Shown here: in pieces, positions 10,183 through 26,985 of the stretch
How the letters are laid out: every line of letters begins with the position of its first letter
Numbering within the stretch: the first letter of the stretch is position 1
IMG/VR virus record: IMGVR_UViG_3300034418_011142
Coordinates: 4,864-68,863 of that record
Direction: 5' to 3' (one strand)
DNA length: 64,000 nucleotides
Source: a virus
Program-made: the position numbers and the translations under genes
Notes under the pieces: model-generated
What the model was told of the DNA's origin: nothing
Database searches by the model: none
Seen by the model: the letters and a program-made list of their open reading frames with translations, nothing else

Positions 10183-10467
10183 ATGTTTAAATTTAAGGTT
10201 GATATATTTAATGAAATTCCTTGGCAAAAATTTACACAATTGCCGCAAATATCTCCTTTACCCTTAAATGAACAAGTAAGAAAATATAATCTTTACATAA
10301 ATGAACTTACGTATGAACGCAATGTTTATTTACATTGGTTAGAAGGACATAAAAAAGGACCTAGAGTTGAAACCACCCCTACCCCACCAGTAGAAGAGGG
10401 ATTTTTATTACAGGAAAATTTATTTGACTTACTACAAGAAACAGGAGATAAAATTATAATAACATAA
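10183..10467 (+). CDS. Hypothetical protein, possibly virion-associated
   Basis: C-terminal FLLQENLFDLLQETGDKII motif; abuts the next gene. Confidence 0.5.
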   Translation: MFKFKVDIFNEIPWQKFTQLPQISPLPLNEQVRKYNLYINELTYERNVYLHWLEGHKKGPRVETTPTPPVEEGFLLQENLFDLLQETGDKIIIT

Positions 10468-10469
10468 CA

Positions 10470-11471
10470 ATGCCAAATTTACCAATTTCCCAATTATCTG
10501 CCTCATCTGCTTTAGATGGAACTGAACTATTAGTAAATGTTCAAGGAGGTGTAACTAAAAAACAAACAGTTCAAGATACATTAAATGCTGACCTACCTAT
10601 AACTTCTTCAGGTATTACTCTTTCAGGAGATATTGTTCCATCTACTCCTCAAGGATCTACATTAGGAAGTGTAGATAGACCATTTGCCGAACTATACCTA
10701 CAATCGGGTTCTATTTCAATTGAATCAGATACACCTGGTGACCCATCGGCTATTATTTCAAATGTAAGTGGTAACTTAGAAATATCAGTAGGGGGTATGT
10801 TACTTATTGAATCCGGTTCATCTTTTACTTCACCAACTGGTTCTTTTGATCAGTTGTCAGCTGATTTACAAGAAAATTATATTTGGATTGGAGATTCTAA
10901 TAACAGAAACATAGAAACCCCAGTCTCATCCCTCCCAGGTTATTTTCCATTTAACTATGGTTTATTTAGCCAAACAGGTTCATCATCACCTATATCAGGT
11001 AGCACCCATATTTCAGGTAGTTTAATTGGGGGAGGAGTTGGAACACTATCGGTTCCCGCCAATGGTTTTACTAAAGGAGATGCATATCAAGCTACTTTTT
11101 CAGGAGTAGTAAATGCTGAAAATAATAAAACACTTGAAATTACAGTTAAAGCTGGAGATGTAGTTTTAGCAGATACTGGAATAATATCTATGCCTGGGGT
11201 TACTGGCGATAAAAGATGGAGAATGGATATTGATTTCTCTATTAGAGAAATTGGTGGAACTGGAACTGCTGAAATTGCAACAGCAGGTACAATACAATTT
11301 AGAACAGATTCATCAGGTGATGTTGTAACTGAAATTTTTAGTGATGTTAATAATACAACTTTTGATACTACAATAGATAATACTTTAACAGTTGAAGCAG
11401 AATGGGGTAGTGGTCCAACTAATTTAAGTTCTATTTATTCTAAGTTATTTACTCTACTGAAAACTTACTAA
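10470..11471 (+). CDS. Putative virion fibre/decoration protein
   Basis: N-terminal MPNLPISQL...ELLVNVQGGVTKK; rich in S/G/T with beta-strand character. Confidence 0.5.
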   Translation: MPNLPISQLSASSALDGTELLVNVQGGVTKKQTVQDTLNADLPITSSGITLSGDIVPSTPQGSTLGSVDRPFAELYLQSGSISIESDTPGDPSAIISNVSGNLEISVGGMLLIESGSSFTSPTGSFDQLSADLQENYIWIGDSNNRNIETPVSSLPGYFPFNYGLFSQTGSSSPISGSTHISGSLIGGGVGTLSVPANGFTKGDAYQATFSGVVNAENNKTLEITVKAGDVVLADTGIISMPGVTGDKRWRMDIDFSIREIGGTGTAEIATAGTIQFRTDSSGDVVTEIFSDVNNTTFDTTIDNTLTVEAEWGSGPTNLSSIYSKLFTLLKTY

Positions 11472-11719
11472 TGCAGCCATACAAAAATAAAGGTAATATA
11501 AGAACGTTTTCGAAAGATGTAAATAAACTAGAACTAGTTTGGCATCAAGACGCTGAAGATAGAGATATCGAGATATTAGAAGGTAAAGGATGGGAATTAC
11601 AAATGGATAATGAATTACCCTTTGAATTAGTAAAGGGAGATCGTATATTTATAACAGAAGGTAGAATACACCGAATATTAAAAGGTACAACCGATTTAAA
11701 AATAAAAATAAATGGATAA
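11471..11719 (+). CDS. Small cupin-like protein
   Basis: WHQDAEDR..ILEG.GW...GD.IFITEGRIHRI two-His cupin pattern. Confidence 0.55.
   Translation: MQPYKNKGNIRTFSKDVNKLELVWHQDAEDRDIEILEGKGWELQMDNELPFELVKGDRIFITEGRIHRILKGTTDLKIKING
11645..11655 (+). promoter_or_regulatory. Late-promoter motif embedded in the cupin CDS
   Basis: ATATTTATAAC, 56 nt upstream of ATG 11712. Confidence 0.45.
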
Positions 11720-11768
11720 TTTCGATTTAAAAAAATATTTAGCTGAAGGTAGGCTATTTGAAGAAGAA
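11699..11768 (+). repeat. 70-bp repeat, copy 1 (5' UTR plus leader-coding sequence)
   Basis: Matches 12060-12129 with 3 mismatches. Confidence 0.95.
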
Positions 11769-12056
11769 ATGAAAGCACCTAGTGGCTGGACTGAAATCAA
11801 AGACTTATCAGACCTACATTATAGCGAAGAAGATGGCGAAATAGCTGTTAAAGCATGGGATGCACCAATGGAAGGGTGGGATGAAGAACATAAAGACATG
11901 ATCATAATAAGAAAAGATGATGATGGATTTTATTTAGATGGGTATGTATCTTTTGGTGATTTTGAAATGCAAGGTCCATTTAACACATATGAAGAAGTGC
12001 TTAAATTAGCTGTTGAAGAAATGGAAGCCTTTAAAGAAGATTGGGACAAATCATAA
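11712..12056 (+). CDS. Putative internal head protein with capsid-targeting leader, paralog 1
   Basis: N-terminus MDNFDLKKYLAEGRLFEEE. Confidence 0.7.
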   Translation: MDNFDLKKYLAEGRLFEEEMKAPSGWTEIKDLSDLHYSEEDGEIAVKAWDAPMEGWDEEHKDMIIIRKDDDGFYLDGYVSFGDFEMQGPFNTYEEVLKLAVEEMEAFKEDWDKS

Positions 12057-12059
12057 ACT

Positions 12060-12129
12060 AAAATAAAAATAAATGGATAATTTCGATTTAAAAAAATATT
12101 TAGCGGAAGGTAGACTATTTAAAGAAGAA
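12060..12129 (+). repeat. 70-bp repeat, copy 2
   Basis: Matches 11699-11768 with 3 mismatches. Confidence 0.95.
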
Positions 12130-12567
12130 CAAATGGGTTCTTATGGAAAATTTTTAAAGGTAGTAAAATCATATGAAGATGAAGAAATACTATCCGATTT
12201 TTTAGATTCATACCCTAAGGGACAGGATATTAGTAAAAGTGAATATGATAAATTTACTGAAAAACATTTTGGTCTAGCTGACCCTGAAGATCACCGAGGT
12301 AAAAATTGGAAATATATTATGTCTGAAGGACGCTTATTAAAAGAAGAATTAACTCCCCTTCAACAGTATGTTTACAACTTCGAAAAAGAAGTTAGTGGTG
12401 AAGATAATGCAAAAGAGTTTTTAGATGGTATTAAAAAATTAAATACTCCTAAAGATGTTTATGATTATTATGCTTTTGAAAGAAATTGGGAAGGTGATAG
12501 TGATCTAGAAGGAGATTTAGAAAATATTTACAATCAAGTATTAGATAAATTTAAAAGTAAAAATTAA
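12073..12567 (+). CDS. Putative internal head protein with capsid-targeting leader, paralog 2 (two modules)
   Basis: N-terminus MDNFDLKKYLAEGRLFKEE; internal KYIMSEGRLLKEELT. Confidence 0.7.
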   Translation: MDNFDLKKYLAEGRLFKEEQMGSYGKFLKVVKSYEDEEILSDFLDSYPKGQDISKSEYDKFTEKHFGLADPEDHRGKNWKYIMSEGRLLKEELTPLQQYVYNFEKEVSGEDNAKEFLDGIKKLNTPKDVYDYYAFERNWEGDSDLEGDLENIYNQVLDKFKSKN

Positions 12568-12573
12568 AACAAA

Positions 12574-13155
12574 ATGGATAACTTTGATTTAAGAAAATAT
12601 TTAGCTGAAGGTCGCTTATTAAAAGAAGAATTAACTTTTTCTTTTGACGAATATAGCTATGAAATCGATGATGCTGCTTATCAAGCAGAAGTAGAAGCAG
12701 GTATTAAAGCTCAATTACCAAACATTTCAGATAAAGTTCTACAAGCTATTATAGATAGTTCTGTAGAATACTACTATGATCAAAGAGAAGAAGATGTACC
12801 TTCTAGCAATATCGTAGATATGGCAGTTGATTATTACAACGATGAAATGACTGGAGACAGTAAACCATCTGCTCCAAGACAAAAATATGATTTATCTGGT
12901 GTTGATTTAAGTGGATTAGATAAAGGTCAAAAAGCAGCTTTTGATGTATTTGTAGATGTTTACCTTAAACCTTATGGTGAAGATGAAACACAAGAAGAAC
13001 TAGAGCGTTATGTTAGACAATTTGGAAAAGTAGAAGATGCGTACGATATCGATTCTATCATCCCAAACTCATTTCAGTACGATAGTGATGAAAGAGAAGC
13101 TATGCAATCTAAAGTAAGAAACGCTTATTTATTTGCTTTTCAACCTATAAATTAA
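12574..13155 (+). CDS. Putative internal head protein with capsid-targeting leader, paralog 3
   Basis: N-terminus MDNFDLRKYLAEGRLLKEELT; nt 12605-12636 matches 12323-12354 at 31/32. Confidence 0.7.
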   Translation: MDNFDLRKYLAEGRLLKEELTFSFDEYSYEIDDAAYQAEVEAGIKAQLPNISDKVLQAIIDSSVEYYYDQREEDVPSSNIVDMAVDYYNDEMTGDSKPSAPRQKYDLSGVDLSGLDKGQKAAFDVFVDVYLKPYGEDETQEELERYVRQFGKVEDAYDIDSIIPNSFQYDSDEREAMQSKVRNAYLFAFQPIN

Positions 13156-13218
13156 AAATAAAAAACATATAGACTGATTCATAGCCAGTCGATTTAATTA
13201 AAAAATATTATGGAGCTG

Positions 13219-13247
13219 TGGCCCATCCTTTGGATGGGTCATTTTTT
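13219..13247 (+). terminator. Intrinsic terminator
   Basis: Stem TGGCCCATCC-TTT-GGATGGGTCA followed by T6. Confidence 0.8.
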
Positions 13248-13258
13248 GTTTGTATATT
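13229..13258 (+). promoter_or_regulatory. Putative early (host-sigma, Bacteroidota-type) promoter
   Basis: TTTGG-N16-TTGTATATT. Confidence 0.6.
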
Positions 13259-13282
13259 AACGTGTTAAAATAAAGGACAAAT

Positions 13283-13507
13283 ATGAGTAAAAAACTTACC
13301 TCAAAAGAAATGATAGAAATGGAACAAAGAGGATTTAGAATACCTCTCCCAGTTTGGTTATATAATTTAAAAAAAGAGGATAAAATAGATTTTACTGAAG
13401 ACAGAGTAAAAGATATGCTAAAATTTGCTGTTGAAAGAGAGTATTATGAAAAAGCAGCTATATTGAGAGATTTTTTAAAAAACAAAAATAAAAGTATAGA
13501 TGAGTAA
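13283..13507 (+). CDS. UvrB/UvrC (UVR) motif protein
   Basis: MLKFAVEREYYEKAAILRD. Confidence 0.65.
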   Translation: MSKKLTSKEMIEMEQRGFRIPLPVWLYNLKKEDKIDFTEDRVKDMLKFAVEREYYEKAAILRDFLKNKNKSIDE

Positions 13508-14792
13508 AAACGTAGTAATGATTGGAGCAGGTGTAGCAAATGTAAATGCTGCTACTAAGCTAGTTGACAATGGATTTAAAGGTAAAATCACTATTATTGA
13601 TATGGGTAAAGATCCATATTTAAGACCTTATGAAGAAGTAATGACGGGCTTTTTAGGAGCAGGAGGTTGGTCTGATGGTAAATTAACTTACCATACTTCA
13701 ATTGGAGGACAATTATCTAAATATTGTGGTGAAGAAAAGGCAATGGAATTGTTTGACCAGGTGATAGATAATTTTAAACGTTTCCACCCTAAACCAGAAG
13801 AAGTACAATGTTCAAATCCAGTTGCAGAACCTGATTTTATTAAACCATATTTTGGATTACGTTTATTCCCTGTATGGCACGTTGGTACAGATTACTTACA
13901 TGAAATAGGTAAAAATTGGTATGACTATTTAGTTGATAATGGTGTTGAGTTTGTATGGGAAACTAAAGTAACTGATATTGATTTTGATAATCAAGAAGTA
14001 CATATTGGGTTAGGAGATGATTGGATAGATTATGATGAACTTATTTTTGGTGTAGGTAAATCAGGTATTGACTTTGGTAAACAATTAGCTGAAAAATATG
14101 ATTTACCAACTGAACCAAAACCAGTACAAATAGGTGTTAGGTTTGAAGCACCACAAAAACACTTCCAAAAATTAATTGATATCTCATATGATTTTAAATT
14201 ATACAGAAAATATGAAGATAAAGGTGTATCATTACGTTCATTTTGTACAAATAATAACGCTGCTTATGTTGCTGTAGAAGAAACATATGGAGACCATAGT
14301 TACAATGGACATGCCAAAAAAGATGAAGCATTTAGAAATGATATGACCAATTTTGGTATTCTAATGGAAGTTAGAGGTATTGAAAAACCATTTGAATGGT
14401 CTAGAGATGTAGTAAATAAACTACAAAAAGATGGTACTGGTTTATATTATAGTCCAAGTAGAGAACCATCTACAACATCTGAAGGTGTAGAAGTATCAGC
14501 AGTTAAAGTAGATACACTACATGAAATAACTAAAGCAATGCAACCTTATTTTTGGTATGTATTGGATTTTATAGAGGATATGAAAAAAGTATTCCCAACA
14601 CTTGAAGATGATTGGGGTATTTATGTTCCTGAAGTAAAATATCTATCACCTGAGCCACTTGTCGATTATACTAATTTAGCACTCACTAAGTATCCTAACG
14701 TACACTTTGTAGGCGATGCTTTATCAGCTAGAGGTATAACGGTAAGTGGTGCACAAGGTACTTATGTTGCTGAATCACTTTTGGAGAATTAA
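13500..14792 (+). CDS. FAD/NAD(P)-dependent oxidoreductase
   Basis: IGAGVA Rossmann motif, GFLGAGGWSDGKL, C-terminal HFVGD...RGITVSGAQG. Confidence 0.85.
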   Translation: MSKNVVMIGAGVANVNAATKLVDNGFKGKITIIDMGKDPYLRPYEEVMTGFLGAGGWSDGKLTYHTSIGGQLSKYCGEEKAMELFDQVIDNFKRFHPKPEEVQCSNPVAEPDFIKPYFGLRLFPVWHVGTDYLHEIGKNWYDYLVDNGVEFVWETKVTDIDFDNQEVHIGLGDDWIDYDELIFGVGKSGIDFGKQLAEKYDLPTEPKPVQIGVRFEAPQKHFQKLIDISYDFKLYRKYEDKGVSLRSFCTNNNAAYVAVEETYGDHSYNGHAKKDEAFRNDMTNFGILMEVRGIEKPFEWSRDVVNKLQKDGTGLYYSPSREPSTTSEGVEVSAVKVDTLHEITKAMQPYFWYVLDFIEDMKKVFPTLEDDWGIYVPEVKYLSPEPLVDYTNLALTKYPNVHFVGDALSARGITVSGAQGTYVAESLLEN

Positions 14793-14809
14793 AATATTTT
14801 TCGTATATT
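14780..14809 (+). promoter_or_regulatory. Putative early promoter
   Basis: TTTGG-N16-TCGTATATT. Confidence 0.65.
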
Positions 14810-14831
14810 TACATTAAATAAAAACATTATT

Positions 14832-15098
14832 ATGAGCATAGAAACAGGACAAACATTTCCAAAATCAAGAAGATTAACAAAACCAGATGGTACAATTGCT
14901 TATACCTGGGATGGTAAATTACACAATTGGGATGGTCCCGCTTTAATACCTGAAGGTAACGAGAAAAAAGCAGAATATTATCTTTATGGTTATCAAAAAA
15001 CAGAAGAAGATTGGAAGGAAATGAGACGTCAAAGAGAAGGTATTCCATTCTATAAAAATCAATCAATGAAATCACAATTGTCAGATTATAGAAATTAA
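14832..15098 (+). CDS. Hypothetical protein with an LHxxDGPA motif
   Basis: GKLHNWDGPALI...EYYLYG. Confidence 0.6.
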   Translation: MSIETGQTFPKSRRLTKPDGTIAYTWDGKLHNWDGPALIPEGNEKKAEYYLYGYQKTEEDWKEMRRQREGIPFYKNQSMKSQLSDYRN

Positions 15099-16702: not shown

Positions 16703-18271
16703 ATGTCTGATTTAAAAAAAGTAATACGTCAAGAATATTTAAAATGTGCCCAAGATCCGGTACATTTTATGCGTAAATACTGTTATATACAGCACCCACA
16801 ACGTGGTCGCATACAATTTAATCTATACCCCTTTCAAGAAAAAGTACTCAAGTTATTTAGAGATAATCCATATAGTATTGTACTAAAATCAAGACAGTTA
16901 GGTATATCTACTTTAGGAGCAGGTTATTCTTTATGGTTAATGTTATTTCATAAAGACAAAAATATTCTATGTATTGCTACAAAACAGGAAACTGCTAAAA
17001 ACATGGTTACAAAGGTAAAATTCATGTATGAGAATTTACCTTCTTGGCTTAAAGTAGATGCTGATGAAAATAATAAATTAACATTAAGATTAAATAATGG
17101 GTCCCAAATTAAAGCTACCTCAGCAAGTTCAGATGCTGGTAGATCCGAAGCAGTATCTTTACTATTAATTGATGAGGCAGCATTCATTGATAATATTGGT
17201 GAGATATGGGCATCAGCTCAACAAACATTAGCAACTGGTGGTGGGTGTATAGCATTATCCACTCCTTATGGTACAGGTAACTGGTTTCATCAAACATGGG
17301 CAAGAGCAGAAGCAGCAGAAAATGAATTTTTACCTATTAAATTGCCATGGTATGTTCACCCAGAACGAGACCAAGCATGGAGAGATAGACAAGATGAATT
17401 ATTAGGAGATCCTAGAATGGCAGCTCAAGAATGTGATTGTGATTTTTCAACTTCTGGTGATATTGTATTTTATCCTGAATATATAGAATATTACGAAAAA
17501 ACTTATATAAAAGATCCCATGGAAAAACGGGGTGCAGATCAAAATTTATGGGTTTGGGAATCACCTGATTATTCAAGAGATTATATTGTAGTAGCTGATG
17601 TATCTAGAGGTGATGGAAAAGATTATTCAGCATGTCATGTAATTGATGTAGAAAATAATGTACAAGTTGCAGAATATAAAGGACAATTAGGAACAAAAGA
17701 ATATGGTCATTTATTAGTTGGTTTAGCTACGGAGTATAATGAAGCAATGTTAGTAATAGAAAATGCAAATATTGGTTGGGCAACTATACAAGTAGCAATT
17801 GATAGAGCATACCCTAACCTCTACTATTCACAAAGGAGTGATTCCCGTAATGCTGATTCGTATTTTGACAAATACCAAGACCATTCAAAAATGGTAGCTG
17901 GTTTTACTATGTCATCTAGAACTAGACCTATGGTAATAGGTAAATTTCAAGAATATATTAGTGATAAAGGAGTAACAATTCAATCTAAAAGGTTGATAGA
18001 GGAAATGAAAGTATTTATTTGGCGTAACGGAAGAGCAGAAGCACAATCAGGATATAACGATGATTTAGTTATGTCTTTTGGTATTGCTATGTATATTAGA
18101 GATACGGCTTTAAAACTAAGACAACGAGGTTTAGATGCAACCCGAAATGCATTAGGTAATATAAAAGTAAATAGAACTACTTATCAAGGTGGCTATTTTT
18201 CTAGTGGAGTTGATAATCCTTACCATATAGACACAAACCATGGTAAAGAAGATATTAGTTGGCTCCTATAA
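16703..18271 (+). CDS. terL: Terminase large subunit (T4 gp17-like)
   Basis: LYPFQ, KSRQLGIST Walker A, LLIDEAAF Walker B, STPYG, nuclease acidic motifs ADVSRGDGKDYS and NDDLVM. Confidence 0.95.
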   Translation: MSDLKKVIRQEYLKCAQDPVHFMRKYCYIQHPQRGRIQFNLYPFQEKVLKLFRDNPYSIVLKSRQLGISTLGAGYSLWLMLFHKDKNILCIATKQETAKNMVTKVKFMYENLPSWLKVDADENNKLTLRLNNGSQIKATSASSDAGRSEAVSLLLIDEAAFIDNIGEIWASAQQTLATGGGCIALSTPYGTGNWFHQTWARAEAAENEFLPIKLPWYVHPERDQAWRDRQDELLGDPRMAAQECDCDFSTSGDIVFYPEYIEYYEKTYIKDPMEKRGADQNLWVWESPDYSRDYIVVADVSRGDGKDYSACHVIDVENNVQVAEYKGQLGTKEYGHLLVGLATEYNEAMLVIENANIGWATIQVAIDRAYPNLYYSQRSDSRNADSYFDKYQDHSKMVAGFTMSSRTRPMVIGKFQEYISDKGVTIQSKRLIEEMKVFIWRNGRAEAQSGYNDDLVMSFGIAMYIRDTALKLRQRGLDATRNALGNIKVNRTTYQGGYFSSGVDNPYHIDTNHGKEDISWLL

Positions 18272-18298: not shown

Positions 18299-20203
18299 AT
18301 GGCAGATAAAGGCTTATTTAGTAGATTACAAAGATTATTTTCAACTGACGTTATTATTCGTAACGCAGGGGGGAACCAAGTAAAAGTAATTGATAGTAAC
18401 ACAATTCAAACTAGTGGTGAACTACAAACAAATTCATTAATAGATAGATATAATAGAATATTTTCTACTAGTCCTTCTTCCTTATACGGATCCCAATTTA
18501 ATGTAAACTATCAATACCTTAGACCCCAATTATACTCAGAATATGATTTAATGGATCAGGATGCAATTATAGCTTCTGCTTTAGATATTATAGCTGATGA
18601 ATCTACATTAAAAAATGATATGGGTGAAGTATTATCTATTCGTTCTTCAAACGAAGATATCCAAAAAATACTTTATAATTTATTTTATGATGTTTTAAAT
18701 ATTGAGTTTAATTTATGGTCATGGGTTAGACAAATGTCTAAATATGGAGATTTTTTCTTAAAATTAGAAATTTCAGAAAAATTCGGTGTTTATAATGTTA
18801 TACCTTACACTGCTTACCATATTGAAAGACAAGAAGGATTTAATCCTGAAAACCCCTCTGAAATTAGATACAAATATTCCCCAGATGGTTTAGTTAGTTC
18901 TAATTCTGGATTATACAGAGTTCCTGGTCAATCTTTTGAAAATAACCAAAATGGGATATTTTTTGATAATTATGAAATGGCTCATTTCAGATTAATTGGT
19001 GATGTCAATTATCTCCCTTATGGTCGTTCATATATTGAACCGGGACGTAAATTGTTTAAACAATATACGCTAATGGAGGATGCAATGTTGATCCATAGAA
19101 TTGCTCGTGCCCCTGAAAAACGTATTTTCTATATGAATGTTGGATCTATTCCTCCAAATGAAATAGAAAATTTTATGCAAAAAACTATATCTCAAATGAA
19201 ACGTACTCCTTATGTTGACCAAAAGACAGGGGAATACAATTTGAAATATAACATGCAAAACATGATGGAGGATTTCTACATCCCTGTTCGTGGAAATGAC
19301 ACAACAACAAAAATTGAAACCACTCCTGGTTTAGCATATGATGGTATTCAAGATGTTGAATATTTAAGAGATAAGTTATTTGCTGCTCTTAAGATACCAA
19401 AAGCATTCTTAGGATATGATGAAAACATTGAAGGTAAAGCTACATTAGCAGCAGAAGATATTCGTTTCGCTCGTACAATTGAAAGAATACAAAGAATACT
19501 AGTATCAGAACTTAATAAAATAGCACTTGTTCATTTATATTCTCAAGGATATAGAGATGAAGCATTAACTAACTTTGAGTTATCAATGCAAACTCCATCT
19601 ATTATATTTGAACAAGAAAAAATTGAGTTAATGAAGTCTAAAACTGAATTAGCTACATCACTTAAAAATGAAGGATTACTCCCTACAGATTGGATCTATG
19701 ATAATATTTTCCATTTATCAGAGGATCAATATGATGAATATAGAGATTTAATGCGTGAAGATGCTAAACGTAAGTTTAGAATGGCACAAATTGAGGCCGA
19801 AGGTAATGACCCAGTTGAAACCGGTAAATCTTATGGTACTCCTCATGATTTAGCTTCATTGTATGGTAAAGGAAGAATGTATTCTGATCCTGGAAATGTT
19901 CCTGATGGGTATGATGAGGATTCTGATTTAGGTCGTCCTAAAGATAGTATTACTAAACATGGGAAACAAGATAGTAATTTTGGAAAAGACCCATTAGGTG
20001 TAAAACGTATGAAAGATACAGATAAAAATGATTCAAGAGATAGTAGAACAGACACAAATAAATCAGGTTTAGCTCTTGAAAATGCCCAAAGTACTTTTTT
20101 AAAAAATCAAAGTATGTTCAAAAAGATGAATAAAAAACAATTAGTATTTGAACATGATAAAGATAATACATCACTTTTAGATGAAAAACAATTAAAGGAA
20201 TAA
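18299..20203 (+). CDS. Portal protein (T4 gp20-like)
   Basis: LMEDAMLIHRIARAPEKRIFY, EDFYIPVRG, YLRDKLFAALKIP; follows terL. Confidence 0.93.
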   Translation: MADKGLFSRLQRLFSTDVIIRNAGGNQVKVIDSNTIQTSGELQTNSLIDRYNRIFSTSPSSLYGSQFNVNYQYLRPQLYSEYDLMDQDAIIASALDIIADESTLKNDMGEVLSIRSSNEDIQKILYNLFYDVLNIEFNLWSWVRQMSKYGDFFLKLEISEKFGVYNVIPYTAYHIERQEGFNPENPSEIRYKYSPDGLVSSNSGLYRVPGQSFENNQNGIFFDNYEMAHFRLIGDVNYLPYGRSYIEPGRKLFKQYTLMEDAMLIHRIARAPEKRIFYMNVGSIPPNEIENFMQKTISQMKRTPYVDQKTGEYNLKYNMQNMMEDFYIPVRGNDTTTKIETTPGLAYDGIQDVEYLRDKLFAALKIPKAFLGYDENIEGKATLAAEDIRFARTIERIQRILVSELNKIALVHLYSQGYRDEALTNFELSMQTPSIIFEQEKIELMKSKTELATSLKNEGLLPTDWIYDNIFHLSEDQYDEYRDLMREDAKRKFRMAQIEAEGNDPVETGKSYGTPHDLASLYGKGRMYSDPGNVPDGYDEDSDLGRPKDSITKHGKQDSNFGKDPLGVKRMKDTDKNDSRDSRTDTNKSGLALENAQSTFLKNQSMFKKMNKKQLVFEHDKDNTSLLDEKQLKE

Positions 20204-21686: not shown

Positions 21687-21924
21687 GTATAAATTAATTG
21701 AACAAGAAGAATCTAAAGCTAAAAACTTCCAAGAAGAACGTATAAGAGCTTTTGATGTACTTGAAAATAAATTAGACGAACTAAAAAAATTACTACGTCA
21801 GAGTAAAATTGAAACTATAAAATACTACAGAAATAACCCACAAAGTTTTGGTGTAGTAGTAGGAACAGATTTAATTACTGACTATTTTAAAGATATTGAA
21901 ACATTACTAAAATCAAAAGAATGA
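21679..21924 (+). CDS. Small head-module protein
   Basis: Probable start at 21679 (MYKYKLIE, like the neighbour's leader); the ORF track starts it at 21661. Confidence 0.5.
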   Translation: MYKYKLIEQEESKAKNFQEERIRAFDVLENKLDELKKLLRQSKIETIKYYRNNPQSFGVVVGTDLITDYFKDIETLLKSKE

Positions 21925-23210
21925 AAAAAGCAGAAAAATTATTTAAAGATTTGCTAAATGAAAATTTAGGATATATTGATCTTAAACCTATTAGCCAAAT
22001 AGAAACTACACCTAAAGCAGATTTTGAAAATAAATTTGCTGAATTTTTAGCTGAAGAAAGCAAAAGAGAAAAAGAAGATGAAGCTGTAAAAGTTGATTCT
22101 AAAAAAGTAGCTAAATCTGTTGAAGAAATTGAAGACCATAATTTTGACTATAAAGATCAAAAGAATTTAGATAATCAAATTGGTCAAGAAGTAATGAATG
22201 GTGTTTACTTTGAAGCTAAACAAAACCCAGATAAAACAATTGATGAAATTAAAGAAATTGTAAGTAAAAATTTAGCTAAAGATCGTCAGTATTATATGAA
22301 AAATGCTGCTTTTGGTGTAGAAGGAATTGGATATGAAGATACAGAGTTGGAAGAAGTTAGTGGTAAATATGCTGCTAGTGGATATTCGGATAAGCTTAAA
22401 AAAGTGGTTAAGGAATCTTTAATGGGAGAATCATATGATGAATTCCAGCGCGATGATAAAGGTGCTAAAGGTGTAGATAAAAAAGATAAAGGTGAAGAAG
22501 AAGCATTTGGTGCTGGGGTAGAAAAAGGTGAAAAAATCGAAAAGAAAAAGATGTCTAAAAAAGCTAAAAAAGAATCAATTGATACTGATTTAGCTGAAAT
22601 TGATAAACAAGCCCAAATTGTAGCTTTAGAAGCTAAATTAAATAAAATAGATGAAGTTATTGAAAGTAAAATGAGCCGTATCAATATGGTATCCGAAGAT
22701 GAAAACTTATCTGAATTAGTAGATAAGAAGAAAATGAAAGCCATGCAAAAAGAAGTTAAAGTCTTAGAAAAAAGAAAAGCTAAGATGGGAAAAATGTATG
22801 AAAAAATGTGTGGTAAAACATATCAAAGAGAAGAAATCGTAGATGAAGTGGAAACTATTAATGAAAATGAGCAATTAAATGAAAATGATATGGTTGTAAG
22901 CTATAGGGGCGAAAAAATACCTATTAAATTTACAGGATTTAAAGCTTTTGATGGAAGAGATGGTAGCCGTGATACAACAGACAATAAAGGTAGATTTGTT
23001 GTAGCTTTAGATGCAGAAAGAACTGATGGTAAACCATTTATAGATAAAGAAAAATTTACTGTACATATTGTTACTAACCCAGGTGTTAGTAAAATAACCC
23101 AAGATGGAACCGTTCCTTTCCCTGATTTTAGTTCTTATACATTTAAACCAAAAGTTGAAGATTTTGGGAAAACTATAGATTTTATTAAAAAAAATATAGA
23201 TAATGGGTAA
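21921..23210 (+). CDS. Putative prohead core protein (charged, coiled coil)
   Basis: LLNE/LAE/VKE/INE/LNE sites; directly upstream of the protease. Confidence 0.55.
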   Translation: MKKAEKLFKDLLNENLGYIDLKPISQIETTPKADFENKFAEFLAEESKREKEDEAVKVDSKKVAKSVEEIEDHNFDYKDQKNLDNQIGQEVMNGVYFEAKQNPDKTIDEIKEIVSKNLAKDRQYYMKNAAFGVEGIGYEDTELEEVSGKYAASGYSDKLKKVVKESLMGESYDEFQRDDKGAKGVDKKDKGEEEAFGAGVEKGEKIEKKKMSKKAKKESIDTDLAEIDKQAQIVALEAKLNKIDEVIESKMSRINMVSEDENLSELVDKKKMKAMQKEVKVLEKRKAKMGKMYEKMCGKTYQREEIVDEVETINENEQLNENDMVVSYRGEKIPIKFTGFKAFDGRDGSRDTTDNKGRFVVALDAERTDGKPFIDKEKFTVHIVTNPGVSKITQDGTVPFPDFSSYTFKPKVEDFGKTIDFIKKNIDNG

Positions 23211-23808
23211 ATCACTCTTAATAGAAACTAATACCTTTAAGGTTAACCCTCTTCAATTAACAGAAAATGTTAACAAGGAGACGGGTAACTTAATGGTTGA
23301 AGGAATTTTAGCTACTGCTGAAGTTAAAAACGGAAATGGTAGATATTATTCTAAAGATCTCTGGAATAGAGAAATGGATAAGTATGATGAACTTATCAAA
23401 GAAAGACGCTCAATGGGCGAACTAGACCATCCAGAATCTTCAGTTATAAACCTCCAAAACGTATCTCATTTAATCTCAGACTATTGGTGGGATGGAGATA
23501 ATGTAATGGGTAAAATAGAAATTTTACCTACTCCTTCAGGTAATATACTTAAAGAACTAATTAAAGCAGGTGTAACAGTAGGTGTTTCATCTCGTGGAAT
23601 GGGATCGTTAGAGCAAAATGGTAACGTAATGGAAGTACAAGATGACTTTGAATTATTATGTTGGGATTTTGTTTCAACACCTTCTAACCCAGGTTCATTT
23701 ATGCACACTTTAAATGAAGGAAAACAAACATTTGTTTACGATTACAATAAAGTAAATAATATAGTACGAGAAATTCTTTGTTCAAAAGGTTCTTGTCCAA
23801 TAACTTAA
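23203..23808 (+). CDS. Prohead protease (T4 gp21-like)
   Basis: NGNGRYY, GELDHP (His), GVSSRGMGS (Ser), WDFVSTPS. Confidence 0.93.
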   Translation: MGKSLLIETNTFKVNPLQLTENVNKETGNLMVEGILATAEVKNGNGRYYSKDLWNREMDKYDELIKERRSMGELDHPESSVINLQNVSHLISDYWWDGDNVMGKIEILPTPSGNILKELIKAGVTVGVSSRGMGSLEQNGNVMEVQDDFELLCWDFVSTPSNPGSFMHTLNEGKQTFVYDYNKVNNIVREILCSKGSCPIT

Positions 23809-23836
23809 CCCCTCTAAATTCAACCGATTTAGACCT

Positions 23837-23859
23837 AAGCCTTCTTTTTGAAGGCTTTT
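23837..23859 (+). terminator. Intrinsic terminator
   Basis: AAGCCTTC-TTTTT-GAAGGCTT followed by a T-rich tract. Confidence 0.65.
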
Positions 23860-23880
23860 ATATTTTTCCCAAATACTCAT

Positions 23881-23890
23881 ATACGTATAA
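23881..23890 (+). promoter_or_regulatory. Variant late promoter ATACGTATAA
   Basis: Two-mismatch version of ATATTTATAA after the terminator and before the scaffold/capsid genes. Confidence 0.45.
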
Positions 23891-23984
23891 CCGTAATATG
23901 CCATCCCTTATATGGCATCGATAAAAAAATATTCCCTATTACGGTTCCTAATAACCGTATTTCACAAATTTAAATTTTGCGATT

Positions 23985-25334
23985 ATGTCAAACAACAGAG
24001 ATTTGCTTAAAGAAGCAATTGCTGATGCTAAAGCTGTAAAAGAAACTGCTATAGCAAATGCCAAAGCTGCTTTAGAAGAAGCATTTACTCCACATTTAAA
24101 ATCTATGCTAGCTGCTAAGTTAGAAGAGATGGATAAAGACGACGTTGATGAAGGGTACGATAAGTACGAAGAAGACGATGTTAAAATGGAAGAAGTAAAT
24201 GAAACTGAAGAAGTAACTGAGGTAGAAGAGATTGAAGAAGAAATCAATCTTGACGAATTACTTGCAGAACTCGAAGAAGGTGAAGATAAGGACGAAGTTA
24301 AAGAATCTGAAGAAATTGAAGAATCTGAAGAAGTAACCGAACAGGAAGAAGACGAAGCCGAAGAAGAAGGCGAAGACGAAGAAGCTGAAGGTGAAATGGA
24401 AGAGGAAGAAATCGATTTAGAAGACATGACTGAAGACGATCTTAAATCTTTTATCGAAGATGTAATTAAAGACATGGTAGAAGCTGGTGAATTAGAAGCT
24501 GGAGAAGAAATGGAAATGGATGATGAAGAATCAGAAATGGATATGGATATCGAAGTGGAAGATGAAGAAGAAGAAATCATGGAAATGGACGAAGTAAGCT
24601 GGAATGAAAAGAACAACCCTACAAGAGGAGCTAGTAAAAAAGAATTAGATCCTAAAAAGGTTGGAAAATCAACTGCTGCTTATGCCATTAATGAAGAAGA
24701 AGTAACTGAAGGTGATCCTGATGCTGCTGCTAGAGGCCTAGAAAACATTATTAACTTTGTTATCAAGAATGCCAAAAAAGGTAAAGATTGGTTAAAGAAA
24801 AATGTTGAAAAAGGATCTATGCAACAAGCTATGACCGAAATGGAAATAGAAGAAGGTGATCCAGATGCAGCTGCTAGAGGACTTGAAAACATTATTAATT
24901 TTGTCATGAAAAACGCCTCTAAAGGTGCTGATTGGCTTAAAAAGAATGTTAAAGTAGGTTCTATGCAGGATGCTATGACTTCAGAAGCGTTAGCTGAAAT
25001 TGAAGAACTTAAAAAAGAACTTCAAGAAGTTAATTTACTAAATGCTAAATTACTTTACACTAACAAAATCTTCAAATCTAAGAATTTGTCAGAAGACAAA
25101 AAAGTTAAAGTGTTAAAAGCTTTTGATAAAGCTGCAACCGTAAAAGAAGCAAAAGTTATTTTTGAAACATTAAACGAAGGTATGTCATCTAAAATGACAA
25201 AATCCCCAATTAATGAAGTAAAAGGTAGTGCTTCAAAAGCTACAGGAGTTGCTCCTAAGGCTAAACAGCCAATTGTTGAAAACGCTGCATTTGCGCGTAT
25301 GCAAAAATTAGCTGGAATTATTAAAGAAAATTAA
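23985..25334 (+). CDS. Prohead scaffolding/core protein
   Basis: Very acidic; between protease and capsid; LLKEAIADAKAV...ALEEAF N-terminus and RMQKLAGI C-terminus. Confidence 0.8.
   Translation: MSNNRDLLKEAIADAKAVKETAIANAKAALEEAFTPHLKSMLAAKLEEMDKDDVDEGYDKYEEDDVKMEEVNETEEVTEVEEIEEEINLDELLAELEEGEDKDEVKESEEIEESEEVTEQEEDEAEEEGEDEEAEGEMEEEEIDLEDMTEDDLKSFIEDVIKDMVEAGELEAGEEMEMDDEESEMDMDIEVEDEEEEIMEMDEVSWNEKNNPTRGASKKELDPKKVGKSTAAYAINEEEVTEGDPDAAARGLENIINFVIKNAKKGKDWLKKNVEKGSMQQAMTEMEIEEGDPDAAARGLENIINFVMKNASKGADWLKKNVKVGSMQDAMTSEALAEIEELKKELQEVNLLNAKLLYTNKIFKSKNLSEDKKVKVLKAFDKAATVKEAKVIFETLNEGMSSKMTKSPINEVKGSASKATGVAPKAKQPIVENAAFARMQKLAGIIKEN
24708..24980 (+). repeat. Internal duplication in the scaffold gene (144-nt period)
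   Basis: EGDPDAAARGLENIINFV.KNA.KG.DWLKKNV..GSMQ.AMT occurs twice, at 24708-24836 and 24852-24980. Confidence 0.9.
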
Positions 25335-25362: not shown

Positions 25363-26985
25363 ATGAGTTTACAAACTTTATTAGAAAGTGCAAACCCATA
25401 TCACTCAGTACAAAGCGATGCCGCTAGATTGTCTGAAAAGTGGGAAAAAACAGGTTTGTTAGAAGGTTTGAAAGGTGCTTCCAAAAATAACATGGGAATG
25501 ATCCTTGAAAACCAAGCTAAGCAACTTGTAGTAGAAAGCTCTCAAACGGGTGGTGGTAGTGCCTCACAAGGTACCTTTACTGCTGGTGTAGGTGAGCAAT
25601 GGGCTGGCGTAGCTCTTCCTTTAGTACGTAAAGTATTTGGACAGATCGCTGCTCAAGAATTCGTATCAGTACAACCAATGAACTTACCTTCTGGTCTTGT
25701 ATTTTTCCTAGATTTCCAATATGGAACTTCTAAGAATCCATTTACTAGTGGTGATTCTATGTATGGTGATGCTGGTGCTGATCCATTTGGAAATACTAAC
25801 ACAGGTGGTCTTTACGGAGCTGGTAGATTTAGTTATTCAATCAATAATACTGCATCAACAGCAACTATTACACCAACTACAGCCTCTTGGTCTGACTTAA
25901 ACTTCGATTCTGATTATTCAGCTTCTGCTACAGCTAACAAGTACAGACTTGTAACTTTTAGTCTTGCAAACAAAAATGCTGATTTCGAAGGTGCTAGAGC
26001 ATTTGTTCTTGAAGGTGGAGTTGGAGTTGAGGAAGGTATTGCTTTACCTCAATTTACTACTGTATCAGGAACTGACGTAGTTTTCGTAATTTCTTCTTCA
26101 TCTGAAGTAGGTGGTGGTGGTGCTGGATCTTACACTGTAGATTACCAGGTACAACCAACTGACCAATATAGAGGTGATTTCGAAGATGGAAACAATTCAT
26201 TAAACGGAGGAAATACTCCAATTTCTATCCCAGAAATTAACGTACAGATGAAATCATCTGCTATCGTAGCTAAAACTCGTAAGTTGAAAGCTGTATGGAC
26301 TCCTGAGTTCGCACAAGACTTGAACGCTTACCATGCTCTAGATGCTGAAGCTGAATTAACTTCTATCTTAAGTGAGTACATTTCACTAGAAATTGACCTT
26401 GAGATCCTAGATATGTTGATTGAGTCTGCTGCTGCTGGAACAGAAGTATGGTCAGCTGTAAATAACAGATCTATCGTAGATAACGGTGCTGATGGTACTA
26501 TTTCAGACCTAGGTTTCTACAATAGCCAAGGACAGTGGTTCCAAACTTTAGGAACTAAAATCCAAAAATTAAGTAACATCATCCACCAGAAAACTCTTAG
26601 AGGTGGTGCTAACTTCCTAGTATGTTCTCCAACTGTAGGTACTATCCTAGAATCTATTCCAGGATTTGCTGCTGATTCAGATGGTGATACTTCTAAAGCA
26701 AGTTACGCTTTTGGTGTACAAAAAGTAGGTGCTATTAACAGCCGTCAGAAAGTTTATAAGAACCCTTACATGAAAGAAAACCAAATCCTATTAGGATTTA
26801 GAGGTGGACAGTTCTTAGAAGCTGGTGCTGTATTTGCTCCATACATTCCATTAATCATGACTCCTCTTGTATACGATCCAGATACGTTTACTCCACGTAA
26901 AGGTCTCTTGACTCGTTACGCTAAGAAGATGGTACGTCCTGAATTCTATGGATTGATCAAAGTAAATGGTTTAAATACTCTATAA
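25363..26985 (+). CDS. Major capsid protein (T4 gp23-like)
   Basis: LPLVRKVF, VSVQPMNLPSGLVF, AKTRKLKAVWTPEFAQDLNAYH, FAPYIPL, PRKGLLTRY. Confidence 0.96.
   Translation: MSLQTLLESANPYHSVQSDAARLSEKWEKTGLLEGLKGASKNNMGMILENQAKQLVVESSQTGGGSASQGTFTAGVGEQWAGVALPLVRKVFGQIAAQEFVSVQPMNLPSGLVFFLDFQYGTSKNPFTSGDSMYGDAGADPFGNTNTGGLYGAGRFSYSINNTASTATITPTTASWSDLNFDSDYSASATANKYRLVTFSLANKNADFEGARAFVLEGGVGVEEGIALPQFTTVSGTDVVFVISSSSEVGGGGAGSYTVDYQVQPTDQYRGDFEDGNNSLNGGNTPISIPEINVQMKSSAIVAKTRKLKAVWTPEFAQDLNAYHALDAEAELTSILSEYISLEIDLEILDMLIESAAAGTEVWSAVNNRSIVDNGADGTISDLGFYNSQGQWFQTLGTKIQKLSNIIHQKTLRGGANFLVCSPTVGTILESIPGFAADSDGDTSKASYAFGVQKVGAINSRQKVYKNPYMKENQILLGFRGGQFLEAGAVFAPYIPLIMTPLVYDPDTFTPRKGLLTRYAKKMVRPEFYGLIKVNGLNTL

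What the first reader, a model, noticed from the sequence alone, without database searches (positions are those of the whole stretch)
11699..13155. Cassette array of genes sharing a capsid-targeting leader with unrelated cargo domains
Seen: three tandem genes begin MDNFDL(K/R)KYLAE-GRL(F/L)(E/K)EE and then diverge into unrelated acidic domains. The UTR plus leader is a 70-bp repeat (11699-11768 vs 12060-12129, 3 mismatches). Gene 2 has an internal leader remnant (12323-12354) matching gene 3 (12605-12636) at 31/32 nt, giving four cargo modules. Known: T-even IPI-locus genes share a cleaved targeting leader, vary between isolates, and IPI* inhibits the GmrSD nuclease. Inference: a recombination-shuffled array of injected anti-defence proteins; their acidity suggests DNA mimics or inhibitors of nucleic-acid-binding defences.
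Basis: partly seen in the sequence, partly recalled or inferred. Interest (0 to 1): 0.82.

Follow-up and report, generated by a model that had tools for sequence, protein, structure and literature searches.

The report
Shared leader tags phage cargo genes
Three neighbouring genes of an uncultured T4-like aquatic phage begin with the same short tag, which probably sends many unrelated small acidic proteins into the virus head and is shared by thousands of proteins in related phages.

Summary
ORFs 11712-12056, 12073-12567 and 12574-13155 all begin MDNFDL[KR]KYLAEGRL. Their cargo modules show no detectable similarity.

The leader is not local. A profile of it finds 2123 protein clusters (50% identity) among 1.84 billion. 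In 77 related viral loci it heads 151 distinct proteins; 143 of their cargos fall into 42 similarity groups, almost none with a Pfam or PHROG name.

- Selection acts on the peptide: synonymous codons vary at invariant residues.
- The leader ends in an invariant [LI]-x-E, the T4 gp21-type cleavage motif.
- The phage encodes an S77 gp21-like prohead protease, an acidic scaffold and a gp23-like capsid protein.
- The slot between two conserved flanking genes holds 0 to 6 leader genes in relatives. In 6 loci the leader genes flank the protease or scaffold genes.
- Fused genes keep only the L-x-E-G-K-L part at module joints.

Best reading (0.6): a T4-CTS-like head-targeting propeptide that also serves as a recombination joint. 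Packaging, injection and anti-defence function are untested. The cargos are acidic, the opposite of the basic T4 internal proteins.

The parts
11471..11719 (+). Conserved 82-aa gene that forms the left flank of the cassette slot. Its stop overlaps the start of gene 1.
   Evidence: Homologues lie directly upstream of leader genes in most of the 44 loci classed at this slot.
11699..11768 (+). Repeat copy 1: A-rich 5' region plus the leader codons of gene 1.
   Evidence: 3 of 70 mismatches to 12060-12129.
11712..12056 (+). Leader gene 1 (114 aa). Leader is residues 1-19. The cargo is a small sheet plus a C-terminal helix.
   Evidence: The search found 17 homologues of the cargo. In the alignment of 19 sequences (these 17, the window's own and P0069) some of them carry other leader types.
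12060..12129 (+). Repeat copy 2 (5' region plus leader of gene 2).
12073..12567 (+). Leader gene 2 (164 aa): leader, module g2n, internal joint, module g2c. It is a fusion of two cassettes. Its stop TAA plus AACAAA is in frame with the ATG of gene 3.
   Evidence: L116 carries a read-through version that continues into a full in-frame leader, with I where the start M stands.
12323..12354 (+). Internal leader remnant (..SEGRLLKEELT) at the joint between the two modules of gene 2.
   Evidence: 31 of 32 bases identical to 12605-12636. The leader HMM matches it, domain E 0.024.
12574..13155 (+). Leader gene 3 (193 aa). Leader is residues 1-19. The cargo is two helical halves.
   Evidence: 41 unnamed homologues. 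AF2 pLDDT 80.4.
13218..13252 (+). Intrinsic-terminator-like hairpin (11 pairs) plus a T run. It closes the transcription unit after gene 3.
13500..14792 (+). FAD/NAD(P)-binding oxidoreductase gene that forms the conserved right flank of the slot.
   Evidence: Pfam Pyr_redox_2 and phrog_12409. Flank in relatives.
23203..23808 (+). Prohead protease (Peptidase_S77, T4 gp21-like), the proposed enzyme that removes the leader.
   Evidence: Pfam E 3.3e-29. T4 gp21 structure 5jbl_A, E 1.2e-15. H76, S130, E21 and E172 are invariant in 13 homologues.
23985..25334 (+). Acidic scaffold-like protein. Its C-terminal tail ..ARMQKLAGIIKEN recurs as an N-terminal tag on other cargo proteins.
25363..26985 (+). 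Major capsid protein (Gp23 family) with an N-terminal propeptide that contains LLE-G and ILE-N.
   Evidence: Pfam E 1.9e-74. Alignment to mature T4 gp23. Sequence.

Best explanation
The first 15-19 residues, MDNFDL[RK]KYLAEG[KR]L(LKEE), are a head-targeting propeptide of the T4 capsid-targeting-sequence kind.

Inferred mechanism: the N-terminal half (MDNFDLRKY) docks the protein onto the scaffolding core while the prohead assembles. The S77 gp21-like prohead protease then cuts after the invariant Glu of [LI]-x-E (LAE|G, possibly also LKE|E). This frees a small, acidic, mostly novel cargo protein inside the head, from where it is probably delivered with the DNA.

Shown by comparison: because the leader is the only sequence the genes share, it also acts as the homology at which cassettes are exchanged, deleted and fused. 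This gives a slot with 0-6 genes in relatives, and multi-module proteins whose joints keep only the L-x-E-G-K-L part. Under this reading these are polyproteins with one address and several cut sites.

What the cargos do after delivery is not shown. Host take-over or anti-defence is the most likely class.
For: 1. Breadth and unrelated cargo.
- 174 leader ORFs, 151 unique, in 77 loci.
- 2123 of 1.836e9 cluster representatives at E<=1e-3.
- 143 cargos fall into 42 similarity groups, 24 of them singletons.
- Pfam matched 2 families over 144 proteins: DUF5872 in 2 and PSD3 in 1. PHROGs gave 11 single hits, 10 of them with no described function.

2. Selection on the peptide.
- F4 is TTT 110 / TTC 100, N3 is AAT 133 / AAC 72, L15 is TTA 93 / CTA 74, in 210 unique contexts.
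- For gene 3, the leader has dN/dS 0.03-0.09 in the two pairs with synonymous change (in the third pair dS was 0). The cargo has 0.30-0.61 in three pairs.

3. Cleavage motif.
- Position 12 is E in 145 of 149. Position 10 is L or I in 148 of 149. Position 11 varies (A123, T8, S6, V6, K3, I2).
- F4, L6 and E12 are invariant in 144 aligned proteins.
- In the T4 record, ipII and ipIII start MKTYQEFIAE-A. Cleavage of ipI after ITE19, giving the 76-residue IPI*, and of gp23 after LTE65, giving the 456-residue mature chain, is inferred here from the lengths of the mature forms.
- Passages of PMC5694885 say these proteases cut after Glu, that T4 CTSs are 10-20 residue propeptides, and that Alt is cut at ITE-6 and LTE-619.

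4. Machinery.
- S77 protease, acidic scaffold and Gp23 capsid protein are in the window.
- PF03420 is found in 17 of 24 leader-bearing records; the other 7 are 27-77% complete (6 of them under 40%) by CheckV's estimate.
- The protease's own ends carry invariant E21 and E172 within [LIV]-x-E-[GNSA].

5. Context.
- All placed leader genes sit in the late structural region. Of 77 loci, 44 have them in the 82-aa/oxidoreductase slot upstream of TerL, 10 after fibre-like genes, and 6 beside the protease, scaffold or h429 head gene: protease-leader-scaffold in L016, L019 and L072, protease-leader-MCP in L013, leader-scaffold in L069, h429-leader-protease in L018. The other 17 have no labelled flank.
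- A terminator follows gene 3.

6. Internal joints (174 unique contexts).
- Leader positions 1-9 are kept in 13-39%. Position 10 is L in 72% (L or I in 136 of 174), followed by E-[GN]-[KR]-L.
- Joints are enriched: 1.46 per 1000 aa in leader proteins against 0.27 in other ORFs.
- The same upstream module (..GLERDELY|EG) is joined to four different downstream modules.

7. Independent link to the capsid.
- The same gene 1 cargo also occurs behind an N-terminal ..ERFQQLAGIKPLYE tag (P0192-P0194..RFQELAGIKS.. in P0195). This tag matches the extreme C-terminal tail of the scaffold protein (R[MFW]xx[LI]AG in 12 of 13 scaffolds).

8. The leader is a low-confidence N-terminal extension (short helices at residues 6-17) in both AF2 models.
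Against: - There are no virion proteomics, N-terminal sequences or cleavage assays for any member. Packaging and cleavage are inferred.
- The leader shows only pattern-level likeness to the T4 CTS, not demonstrable homology.
- The cargos are acidic: median pI 4.32 and net charge -0.12 per residue (n=143). Sixty other window ORFs have pI 5.31 and -0.027. The mature T4 internal proteins have pI 9.0-9.65. Acidic proteins beside packed DNA are less expected.
- Four leaders lack E12.
- L-x-E is a common tripeptide in Glu- and Leu-rich proteins, so its presence in the head proteins is weak evidence.
- The internal-joint counts lean on the top 150 profile hits, which favour proteins with several leader matches, and on a regex that requires E[GN][KR][LI].
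- One record that is 77% complete has leader genes but no PF03420 match.
Confidence: 0.6

Rival explanations
1. The leader does target proteins to the prohead, but the cargos are assembly material rather than injected effectors. They would be acidic core or filler proteins that are degraded or expelled at maturation, as the T4 scaffold gp22 and core proteins gp67 and gp68 are.
For: The cargos are as acidic as a scaffold. Leader genes flank the protease or scaffold genes in 6 of 77 loci. Passages of PMC5694885 describe T4 core proteins being cut into fragments that leave the head.
Against: A structural filler would not be expected to come in 42 or more unrelated groups, or to vary from 0 to 6 genes between close relatives. 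Gene 3 and gene 1 cargos are predicted to fold into compact domains (pLDDT 80 and 70), and gene 3's cargo evolves under purifying selection (dN/dS 0.30-0.61).
Confidence: 0.15
2. The shared N-terminus is a docking peptide for something other than the prohead core. The partner could be another virion site (neck, baseplate, fibres) or a cytoplasmic hub such as a chaperone, a host protein or a cytoplasmic protease. The cargos would then not be inside the head.
For: In 54 of 77 loci the arrays lie among or just after fibre-like genes. The 333-aa upstream protein has tail-fibre-type look-alikes, as leads only (score 0.83). Residues 30-93 of gene 3 weakly resemble helical head-to-tail adaptor proteins: best Z 6.9, and about 11 of the top 50 rows are phage portal-tail or neck entries.
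Against: Z under 8 for a helical bundle may reflect only a common arrangement. This reading does not explain the invariant [LI]-x-E with a free middle residue. It does not explain why only that part is kept at internal joints. It does not explain the alternative tag that copies the scaffold's C-terminal tail.
Confidence: 0.15
3. The repeat carries no protein-level function. It would be conserved as DNA or RNA (start-region or expression signal, or recombination site), or simply homogenised by gene conversion between paralogues.
For: Copies 1 and 2 in the window are near-identical and include 13 bases upstream of the ATG. The region upstream of the ATG is A-rich and mildly conserved. Module swapping at the motif shows that it does recombine.
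Against: Invariant residues are encoded by freely varying synonymous codons across 210 contexts. The motif is kept in frame at internal joints, far from any start codon. The leader's dN/dS is 0.03-0.09.
Confidence: 0.03
4. One reading: the acidic cargos are DNA mimics, or inhibitors of nucleic-acid-binding defence proteins (Ocr/ArdA-like).
For: Strong and general acidity: 80% of 143 cargos have pI below 5.
Against: Gene 3 and gene 1 models gave no Foldseek match at E<=1e-3 in the PDB, and gene 3 none in BFVD. With 42 or more unrelated groups, one common mechanism is unlikely. One leader protein carries an OmpA-type peptidoglycan-binding domain instead. Acidity is also a feature of the scaffold.
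Confidence: 0.1

Closest known systems
T4 capsid targeting sequence (CTS) of internal proteins IPI, IPII, IPIII and Alt, with the polymorphic T-even internal-protein loci
   Same: A short N-terminal leader is shared by otherwise unrelated proteins and ends in [LI]-x-E. T4 ipII and ipIII start MKTYQEFIAE-A. Both phages have a gp21-type protease with a scaffold core. Passages of PMC3012670 describe the T-even internal proteins as a highly diverse set with only a conserved CTS. Here the locus likewise differs between relatives.
   Different: There is no demonstrable sequence homology between the two leaders. Here there are up to 7 leader matches per record in the five records searched, thousands of cargo clusters and multi-module fusions with internal joints. 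Alternative tags B and C occur on the same cargo. The cargos are acidic, whereas the T4 IPs are basic. Packaging, cleavage and injection are proven for T4 and untested here.
Ejection or inner-body protein paralogues of giant phages (SPN3US gp53/gp54; phiKZ gp93-95, 162, 163)
   Same: Passages of PMC5694885 report that SPN3US gp53 and gp54 share an identical 15-residue N-terminus, MANFVKSKLARESVE, with an A-x-E-12 site, although the proteins are only 34% identical. The authors liken this to T4 CTSs. Head paralogue numbers vary between phages. The leader here also reaches its Glu at residue 12 and shares M1, N3, F4, K8 and E12 with that peptide (my comparison).
   Different: Those proteins are homologous paralogues (pfam12699) with propeptides over 100 residues long, cut by an S80 protease at A-x-E. 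Here the cargos are unrelated, the leader is 15-19 residues, and the protease is S77.
Scaffold C-terminal coat-binding tails (P22-type scaffolds; recalled knowledge, not tested here)
   Same: An alternative tag found on the gene 1 cargo (..RFQQLAGI..) copies the conserved C-terminal tail of this clade's scaffold protein.
   Different: It is not shown that this tail binds the capsid protein in this clade. The tag sits at the N-terminus of the cargos and in all eight examples read is followed within eight residues by an [LI]-x-E tripeptide.

Membership tests
T4-type CTS-bearing internal head proteins | Short (10-20 aa) N-terminal leader conserved among otherwise unrelated proteins of one phage | tested here: met
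   Three window genes share 17-19 of the first 19 residues, and their cargos have no similarity. Across 144 aligned proteins, conservation ends near residue 19.
T4-type CTS-bearing internal head proteins | Leader ends at a gp21-type cleavage site ([LI]-x-Glu) | tested here: met
   Sequence level only. L or I at position 10 in 148 of 149, E at position 12 in 145 of 149, middle residue variable. T4 sites read from the T4 record. Actual cleavage was not tested.
T4-type CTS-bearing internal head proteins | Genome encodes a gp21-family prohead protease and a scaffolding core | tested here: met
   PF03420 E 3.3e-29, 5jbl_A E 1.2e-15, acidic 449-aa scaffold-like protein, Gp23 capsid protein. PF03420 found in 17 of 24 leader-bearing records.
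T4-type CTS-bearing internal head proteins | Leader homologous in sequence to the T4 CTS | tested here: not met
   Read by eye against the T4 ipI, ipII and ipIII N-termini. Only a pattern is shared (M, an aromatic near position 4, aromatic-[IL]-A-E). No alignment statistic is possible for 10-12 residues.
T4-type CTS-bearing internal head proteins | Protein present in the virion, N-terminally processed, and ejected with the DNA | not testable with these tools
   No proteomic data were found. Among cultured phages only Flavobacterium phage immuto matched the leader, weakly (4 records, E=9, 15 residues), in the 50,697-record collection; the translation of its gp003 then showed the leader.
T4-type CTS-bearing internal head proteins | Locus polymorphic between related phages | tested here: met
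   The slot between the 82-aa gene and the oxidoreductase gene holds 0-6 leader genes with different cargos.
DNA-mimic anti-restriction proteins (Ocr/ArdA type) | Fold with a DNA-like array of acidic residues | tested here: inconclusive
   Acidity is met. Foldseek of the gene 3 and gene 1 models gave 0 matches at E<=1e-3. VIA-align of gene 3 reached at most Z 6.9, to unrelated helical proteins. Gene 2 was not folded.

The most novel reading that the evidence does not exclude
A whole clade of aquatic T4-like phages (Immutovirus-like, probably infecting Bacteroidota) runs a plug-and-play head-loading system. Interchangeable address tags are followed by an [LI]-x-E cut site: type A MDNFDLRKYLAEG, type B MKELxRFRQFLTEG, and type C, which copies the scaffold's own C-terminal tail. 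These tags are placed in front of thousands of unrelated small acidic proteins. Cassettes recombine at the tag. When cassettes fuse, the joints keep only the cut site, so that polyproteins with one address are diced into several cargos by the prohead protease inside the capsid. The cargo set would be a very large, almost wholly unannotated library of injected effectors.
Probability: 0.35. Interest if true: 0.85.

Novelty: new variant of a known kind. Interest (0 to 1): 0.72.

Why it matters
If the tag works as proposed, it marks proteins that a phage carries into the cell ahead of gene expression. That is the class that includes the T4 anti-restriction protein IPI*.

- A simple profile of the tag pulls out 2123 protein clusters that currently have no annotation. 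This gives a ready list of candidate counter-defence or take-over proteins for a group of phages whose nearest cultured relative infects Flavobacterium and whose sequence occurs in freshwater, estuary and marine runs.
- It would extend the CTS principle, so far documented experimentally mainly in T-even and giant phages, to a distant T4-like lineage.
- It would add two features not described for T4: polyprotein cargos with internal cut sites, and a tag that mimics the scaffold tail.
- It also suggests a protein-packaging handle for engineering these phages.

The motif strings were not found in the searchable literature.

Tried and rejected
- Complex prediction of the protease (alignment A4) with the leader (alignment A2): no verdict, score 0.00. 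This is evidence neither way.
- Foldseek of the gene 3 model against PDB and BFVD, and of the gene 1 model against PDB: nothing at E<=1e-3.
- The protein-atlas search for gene 3's cargo gave no usable hit.
- blastn of the locus against 50,697 phage records: no match.
- tblastn of gene 3 against the phage records: only chance-level hits.
- tblastn of a type C N-terminus and of a type B protein against the phage records: no credible hit.
- Read laying. Single-contig joints linking the leader of gene 1 to that of gene 3 (skips of about 805 bases, sides of 27-39 letters) are most likely repeat artefacts and are not used. The runs are contigs, so depth and gaps say little. RNA-library contigs matching genes 2 and 3 with 0-1 differences are at most a weak hint of transcription, since DNA carry-over is possible.
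- Within-genome homogeneity of leader variants (G or N at position 13) was examined and found mixed. Only small examples (L009, L044) are uniform, so no co-evolution claim is made.
- A leader-like small ORF between protease and scaffold, as in immuto gp069, was sought in the window and not found.
- Repoila et al. 1994 (PMC395341) is not held. Its content is known here only through the sentence in PMC3012670.
- Supplementary files of papers were not consulted. Supplementary Figure 1 of PMC5694885, which lists T4 CTSs, may bear on the comparison.
Full report
**What is in the window**

Three tandem + strand ORFs lie at 11712-12056 (114 aa), 12073-12567 (164 aa) and 12574-13155 (193 aa). All begin MDNFDL[KR]KYLAEGRL[FL][EK]EE.
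- The 70 bases 11699-11768 differ from 12060-12129 at 3 positions.
- The 32 bases 12323-12354 inside gene 2 differ from 12605-12636 at 1 position.
- The third leader copy differs from the first at 11 of 70 bases.
- A profile of the leader run over the six-frame window finds these three genes and the internal remnant, and nothing else.
- None of the three proteins matches Pfam or PHROGs convincingly.
- A strong terminator-like hairpin follows gene 3 at 13218-13242.

**What kind of genome this is**

The window is part of a 68.9-kb viral record estimated 42% complete. It carries a T4-type head module:
- large terminase, 16703-18271, and portal, 18299-20203;
- a Peptidase_S77 prohead protease, 23203-23808 (E 3.3e-29; T4 gp21 structure 5jbl_A at E 1.2e-15);
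- a very acidic 449-aa scaffold-like protein, 23985-25334;
- a Gp23-family capsid protein, 25363-26985.

The nearest cultured phage is Flavobacterium phage vB_FspM_immuto, whose capsid protein is 58.7% identical. Public runs that hold the locus are labelled freshwater, estuary and marine metagenomes.

**The leader is a widespread tag, not a local duplication**

- A scan with gene 3 found 77 related viral loci, many matching only residues 1-20.
- In these loci a regular expression finds 174 leader ORFs, 151 of them unique.
- A profile built from 112 leaders finds 2123 cluster representatives (50% identity) at E<=1e-3 among 1.836 billion proteins.
- In 144 aligned full-length proteins only F4, L6 and E12 are invariant, and conservation fades after about residue 19.
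- By BLASTP, 143 cargos fall into 42 single-linkage groups. Of these, 24 are singletons, and the largest group (49 members) is chained together by mosaic modules.
- Pfam matched 2 families over the 144 proteins (DUF5872 in 2, PSD3 in 1). PHROGs gave 11 single hits, 10 of them with no described function.
- Of ten further long or unusual members, one has an OmpA-type domain.

**Selection is on the peptide**

Across 210 unique contexts, invariant residues use both synonymous codons freely: F4 is TTT 110 / TTC 100, N3 is AAT 133 / AAC 72, L15 is TTA 93 / CTA 74. The upstream region is merely A-rich.

Gene 3 was compared in three close relatives:
- the leader has dN/dS 0.03-0.09 in two pairs (in the third, dS was 0);
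- the cargo has dN/dS 0.30-0.61;
- flanking genes have dN/dS 0.06-0.34;
- the cargo's dS (0.13-0.27) is lower than that of the flanking oxidoreductase and w15102 genes (0.39-0.67), which suggests recent exchange of the cassette.

**The motif fits the protease**

Position 10 is L or I in 148 of 149, position 12 is E in 145 of 149, and position 11 is free. This gives [LI]-x-E.

The T4 record gives matching examples. ipII and ipIII start MKTYQEFIAE-A. ipI would be cut after ITE19, which gives the 76-residue IPI* named in PMC3012670. gp23 would be cut after LTE65, which matches the 456-residue mature chains in the PDB.

Passages of PMC5694885 state that T4 internal head proteins join the core through 10-20-residue CTS propeptides. 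They also state that these proteases cut after Glu and that Alt is cut at ITE-6 and LTE-619.

In 13 protease homologues of this clade, H76 and S130 are invariant. So are E21 and E172, each inside [LIV]-x-E-[GNSA]. These are plausible self-cleavage sites with the same shape as the leader's LAE-G.

The capsid protein's propeptide holds LLE-G and ILE-N close to where mature T4 gp23 begins in the alignment. Such tripeptides are common, so this last point is weak.

**Co-occurrence and context**

PF03420 is present in 17 of 24 leader-bearing records. The other 7 are 27-77% complete (6 of them under 40%) by CheckV's estimate. Among five records searched, leader matches number 7, 7, 3, 1 and 2.

The 77 loci divide as follows:
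- 44 have leader genes in the slot between the conserved 82-aa gene and the oxidoreductase gene upstream of the terminase;
- 10 have them after fibre-like genes;
- 6 have them beside the protease, scaffold or h429 head gene: protease-leader-scaffold in L016, L019 and L072, protease-leader-MCP in L013, leader-scaffold in L069, and h429-leader-protease in L018;
- 17 have no labelled flank.

The slot holds 0 to 6 leader genes, with different cargos, in relatives whose flanking genes are 76-96% identical.

**Fusions and joints**

The C half of gene 2 occurs elsewhere as stand-alone leader genes, and its N half occurs in another fusion. Gene 2's stop and gene 3's start are in frame. One relative, L116, carries a read-through version that continues into a full in-frame leader.

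Alignment of gene 3 relatives shows many multi-module proteins joined by internal leader remnants.

Over 412 unique leader proteins there are 174 unique internal E[GN][KR][LI] contexts:
- leader positions 1-9 are retained in only 13-39%;
- position 10 jumps to L in 72% (L or I in 136 of 174; LIVMF in 158 of 174);
- 151 of the 412 proteins have at least one joint.

Joints occur at 1.46 per 1000 aa in leader proteins, against 0.27 in other ORFs of the same loci. One upstream module is joined at the same point to four different downstream modules.

Two caveats apply. The regular expression defines what counts as a joint, and 147 of the proteins are top profile hits, which favour repeated leaders.

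I read the step between positions 9 and 10 as retention of the cut site without the address. That would make these proteins polyproteins. This is inference.

**Other tags, and a link to the scaffold**

The gene 1 cargo (17 homologues) also occurs behind two other N-termini:
- type B, MKELxRFRQ[FY]LTEG.. This type lies in the same loci as type A (16 loci);
- type C, ..ERFQQLAGIKPLYE..

The type C core matches the extreme C-terminus of the scaffold protein..ARMQKLAGIIKEN in the window and ..SRWQKLAGIIK in immuto. A tail of the form R[MFW]xx[LI]AG ends 12 of 13 scaffolds examined.

As an N-terminal tag, this core is followed within eight residues by an [LI]-x-E tripeptide in all eight examples read. 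These are immuto gp083, L029, L059, L192 and P0192-P0195.

That scaffold tails bind the coat protein is recalled from other phages and was not tested here. Even so, a cargo tag that copies the scaffold's conserved end is independent support for head targeting.

The T4 gp22 N-terminus (MLKEQLIAEA) resembles the T4 CTS. The window scaffold's N-terminus (MSNNRDLLKEAIADA) loosely resembles leader A. These are leads only.

**The cargos**

- Gene 3 folds with pLDDT 80.4 as two helical halves; the linker has no helix (94-116) and pLDDT under 50 at 95-101.
- Gene 1 folds with pLDDT 70.1 as a small sheet plus a helix.
- In both models the leader is a low-confidence extension.
- Foldseek finds nothing at E<=1e-3.
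- VIA-align gives at most Z 6.9 for residues 30-90 of gene 3. Several of those rows are phage head-to-tail adaptor entries. This is below the level that means more than a common helical arrangement.
- The cargos are strikingly acidic: median pI 4.32 and -0.12 charge per residue (n=143). Sixty other window ORFs have pI 5.31 and -0.027 (Mann-Whitney p about 1e-10). The mature T4 IPs are basic.

The function of the cargos is open.

**Verdict**

The most likely reading (0.6) is a CTS-like propeptide that is removed by the S77 protease and that doubles as the recombination joint of a cassette system.

Shown here:
- the tag, its breadth and its peptide-level constraint;
- the [LI]-x-E shape;
- the protease and scaffold genes;
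- the variable slot, the fusions and the scaffold-tail tag.

Inferred, not shown:
- docking to the core;
- cleavage, presence in virions and injection;
- any anti-defence role.

The rival readings are assembly filler (0.15), a docking peptide for another partner (0.15) and a DNA-level signal only (0.03). The DNA-mimic sub-claim stands at 0.1.

The kind is known from T4 and from giant phages. The leader family, its scale, the acidic cargos, the internal joints and the scaffold-tail tag are, as far as the searches reach, undescribed.

Noticed in passing
window 25296-25334 (C-terminus of the scaffold-like protein): The tail ..ARMQKLAGIIKEN is conserved at the very end of 12 of 13 scaffold homologues. 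It also ends an unrelated 224-aa protein in L087, L150 and L165, and it starts several cargo proteins (immuto gp083, L029, L192).
   Followed up: partly
window 21921-23210: The 429-aa protein just upstream of the protease has an internal ..FENKFAEFLAEES.. stretch that recalls the leader, and a coiled-coil region weakly similar to the long leader protein P0084. It may be a core protein.
   Followed up: no
window 12664-12852 (gene 3 residues 30-93): VIA-align lists about 11 phage portal-tail, neck or adaptor chains among the top 50 matches (best Z 6.9, 60 residues aligned). This is below the level that is reliable for helical bundles.
   Followed up: partly
window 12574-13155 versus L005, L006 and L007: The synonymous divergence of gene 3's cargo (0.13-0.27) is lower than that of the flanking oxidoreductase and w15102 genes (0.39-0.67). 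This suggests the cassette was exchanged more recently than its flanks diverged.
   Followed up: partly
protein P0075 (leader protein from the profile search): A 510-aa leader-bearing protein carries an OmpA-family peptidoglycan-binding domain at residues 338-422 (E 4.8e-8). Besides DUF5872 and PSD3, this is the only recognisable domain seen in any cargo.
   Followed up: no
window 10400-14900 in runs X3, X4 and X6: Contig depth spikes 10- to 100-fold in the two bins that hold leaders (11608-11758 and 12514-12664). Contigs diverge right after the leader at 12612. This fits many different leader genes being present in the same samples.
   Followed up: partly
window 618-2213 and 27182-27919: Auxiliary genes: a protein with a 5'-3' deoxyribonucleotidase domain, and a PhoH-like ATPase a short way downstream of the capsid gene. 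The order matches that in phage immuto.
   Followed up: no
window 34282-39837 and 56945-61336: Two very long ORFs (1851 and 1463 aa) in the structural region were not examined.
   Followed up: no
locus L081 18346-18573 (immuto gp069): A 75-aa gene between protease and scaffold begins MENNFDIHKWQAKFLKES, a leader-like variant. The window has no counterpart in the 177-bp gap at 23808-23985.
   Followed up: yes
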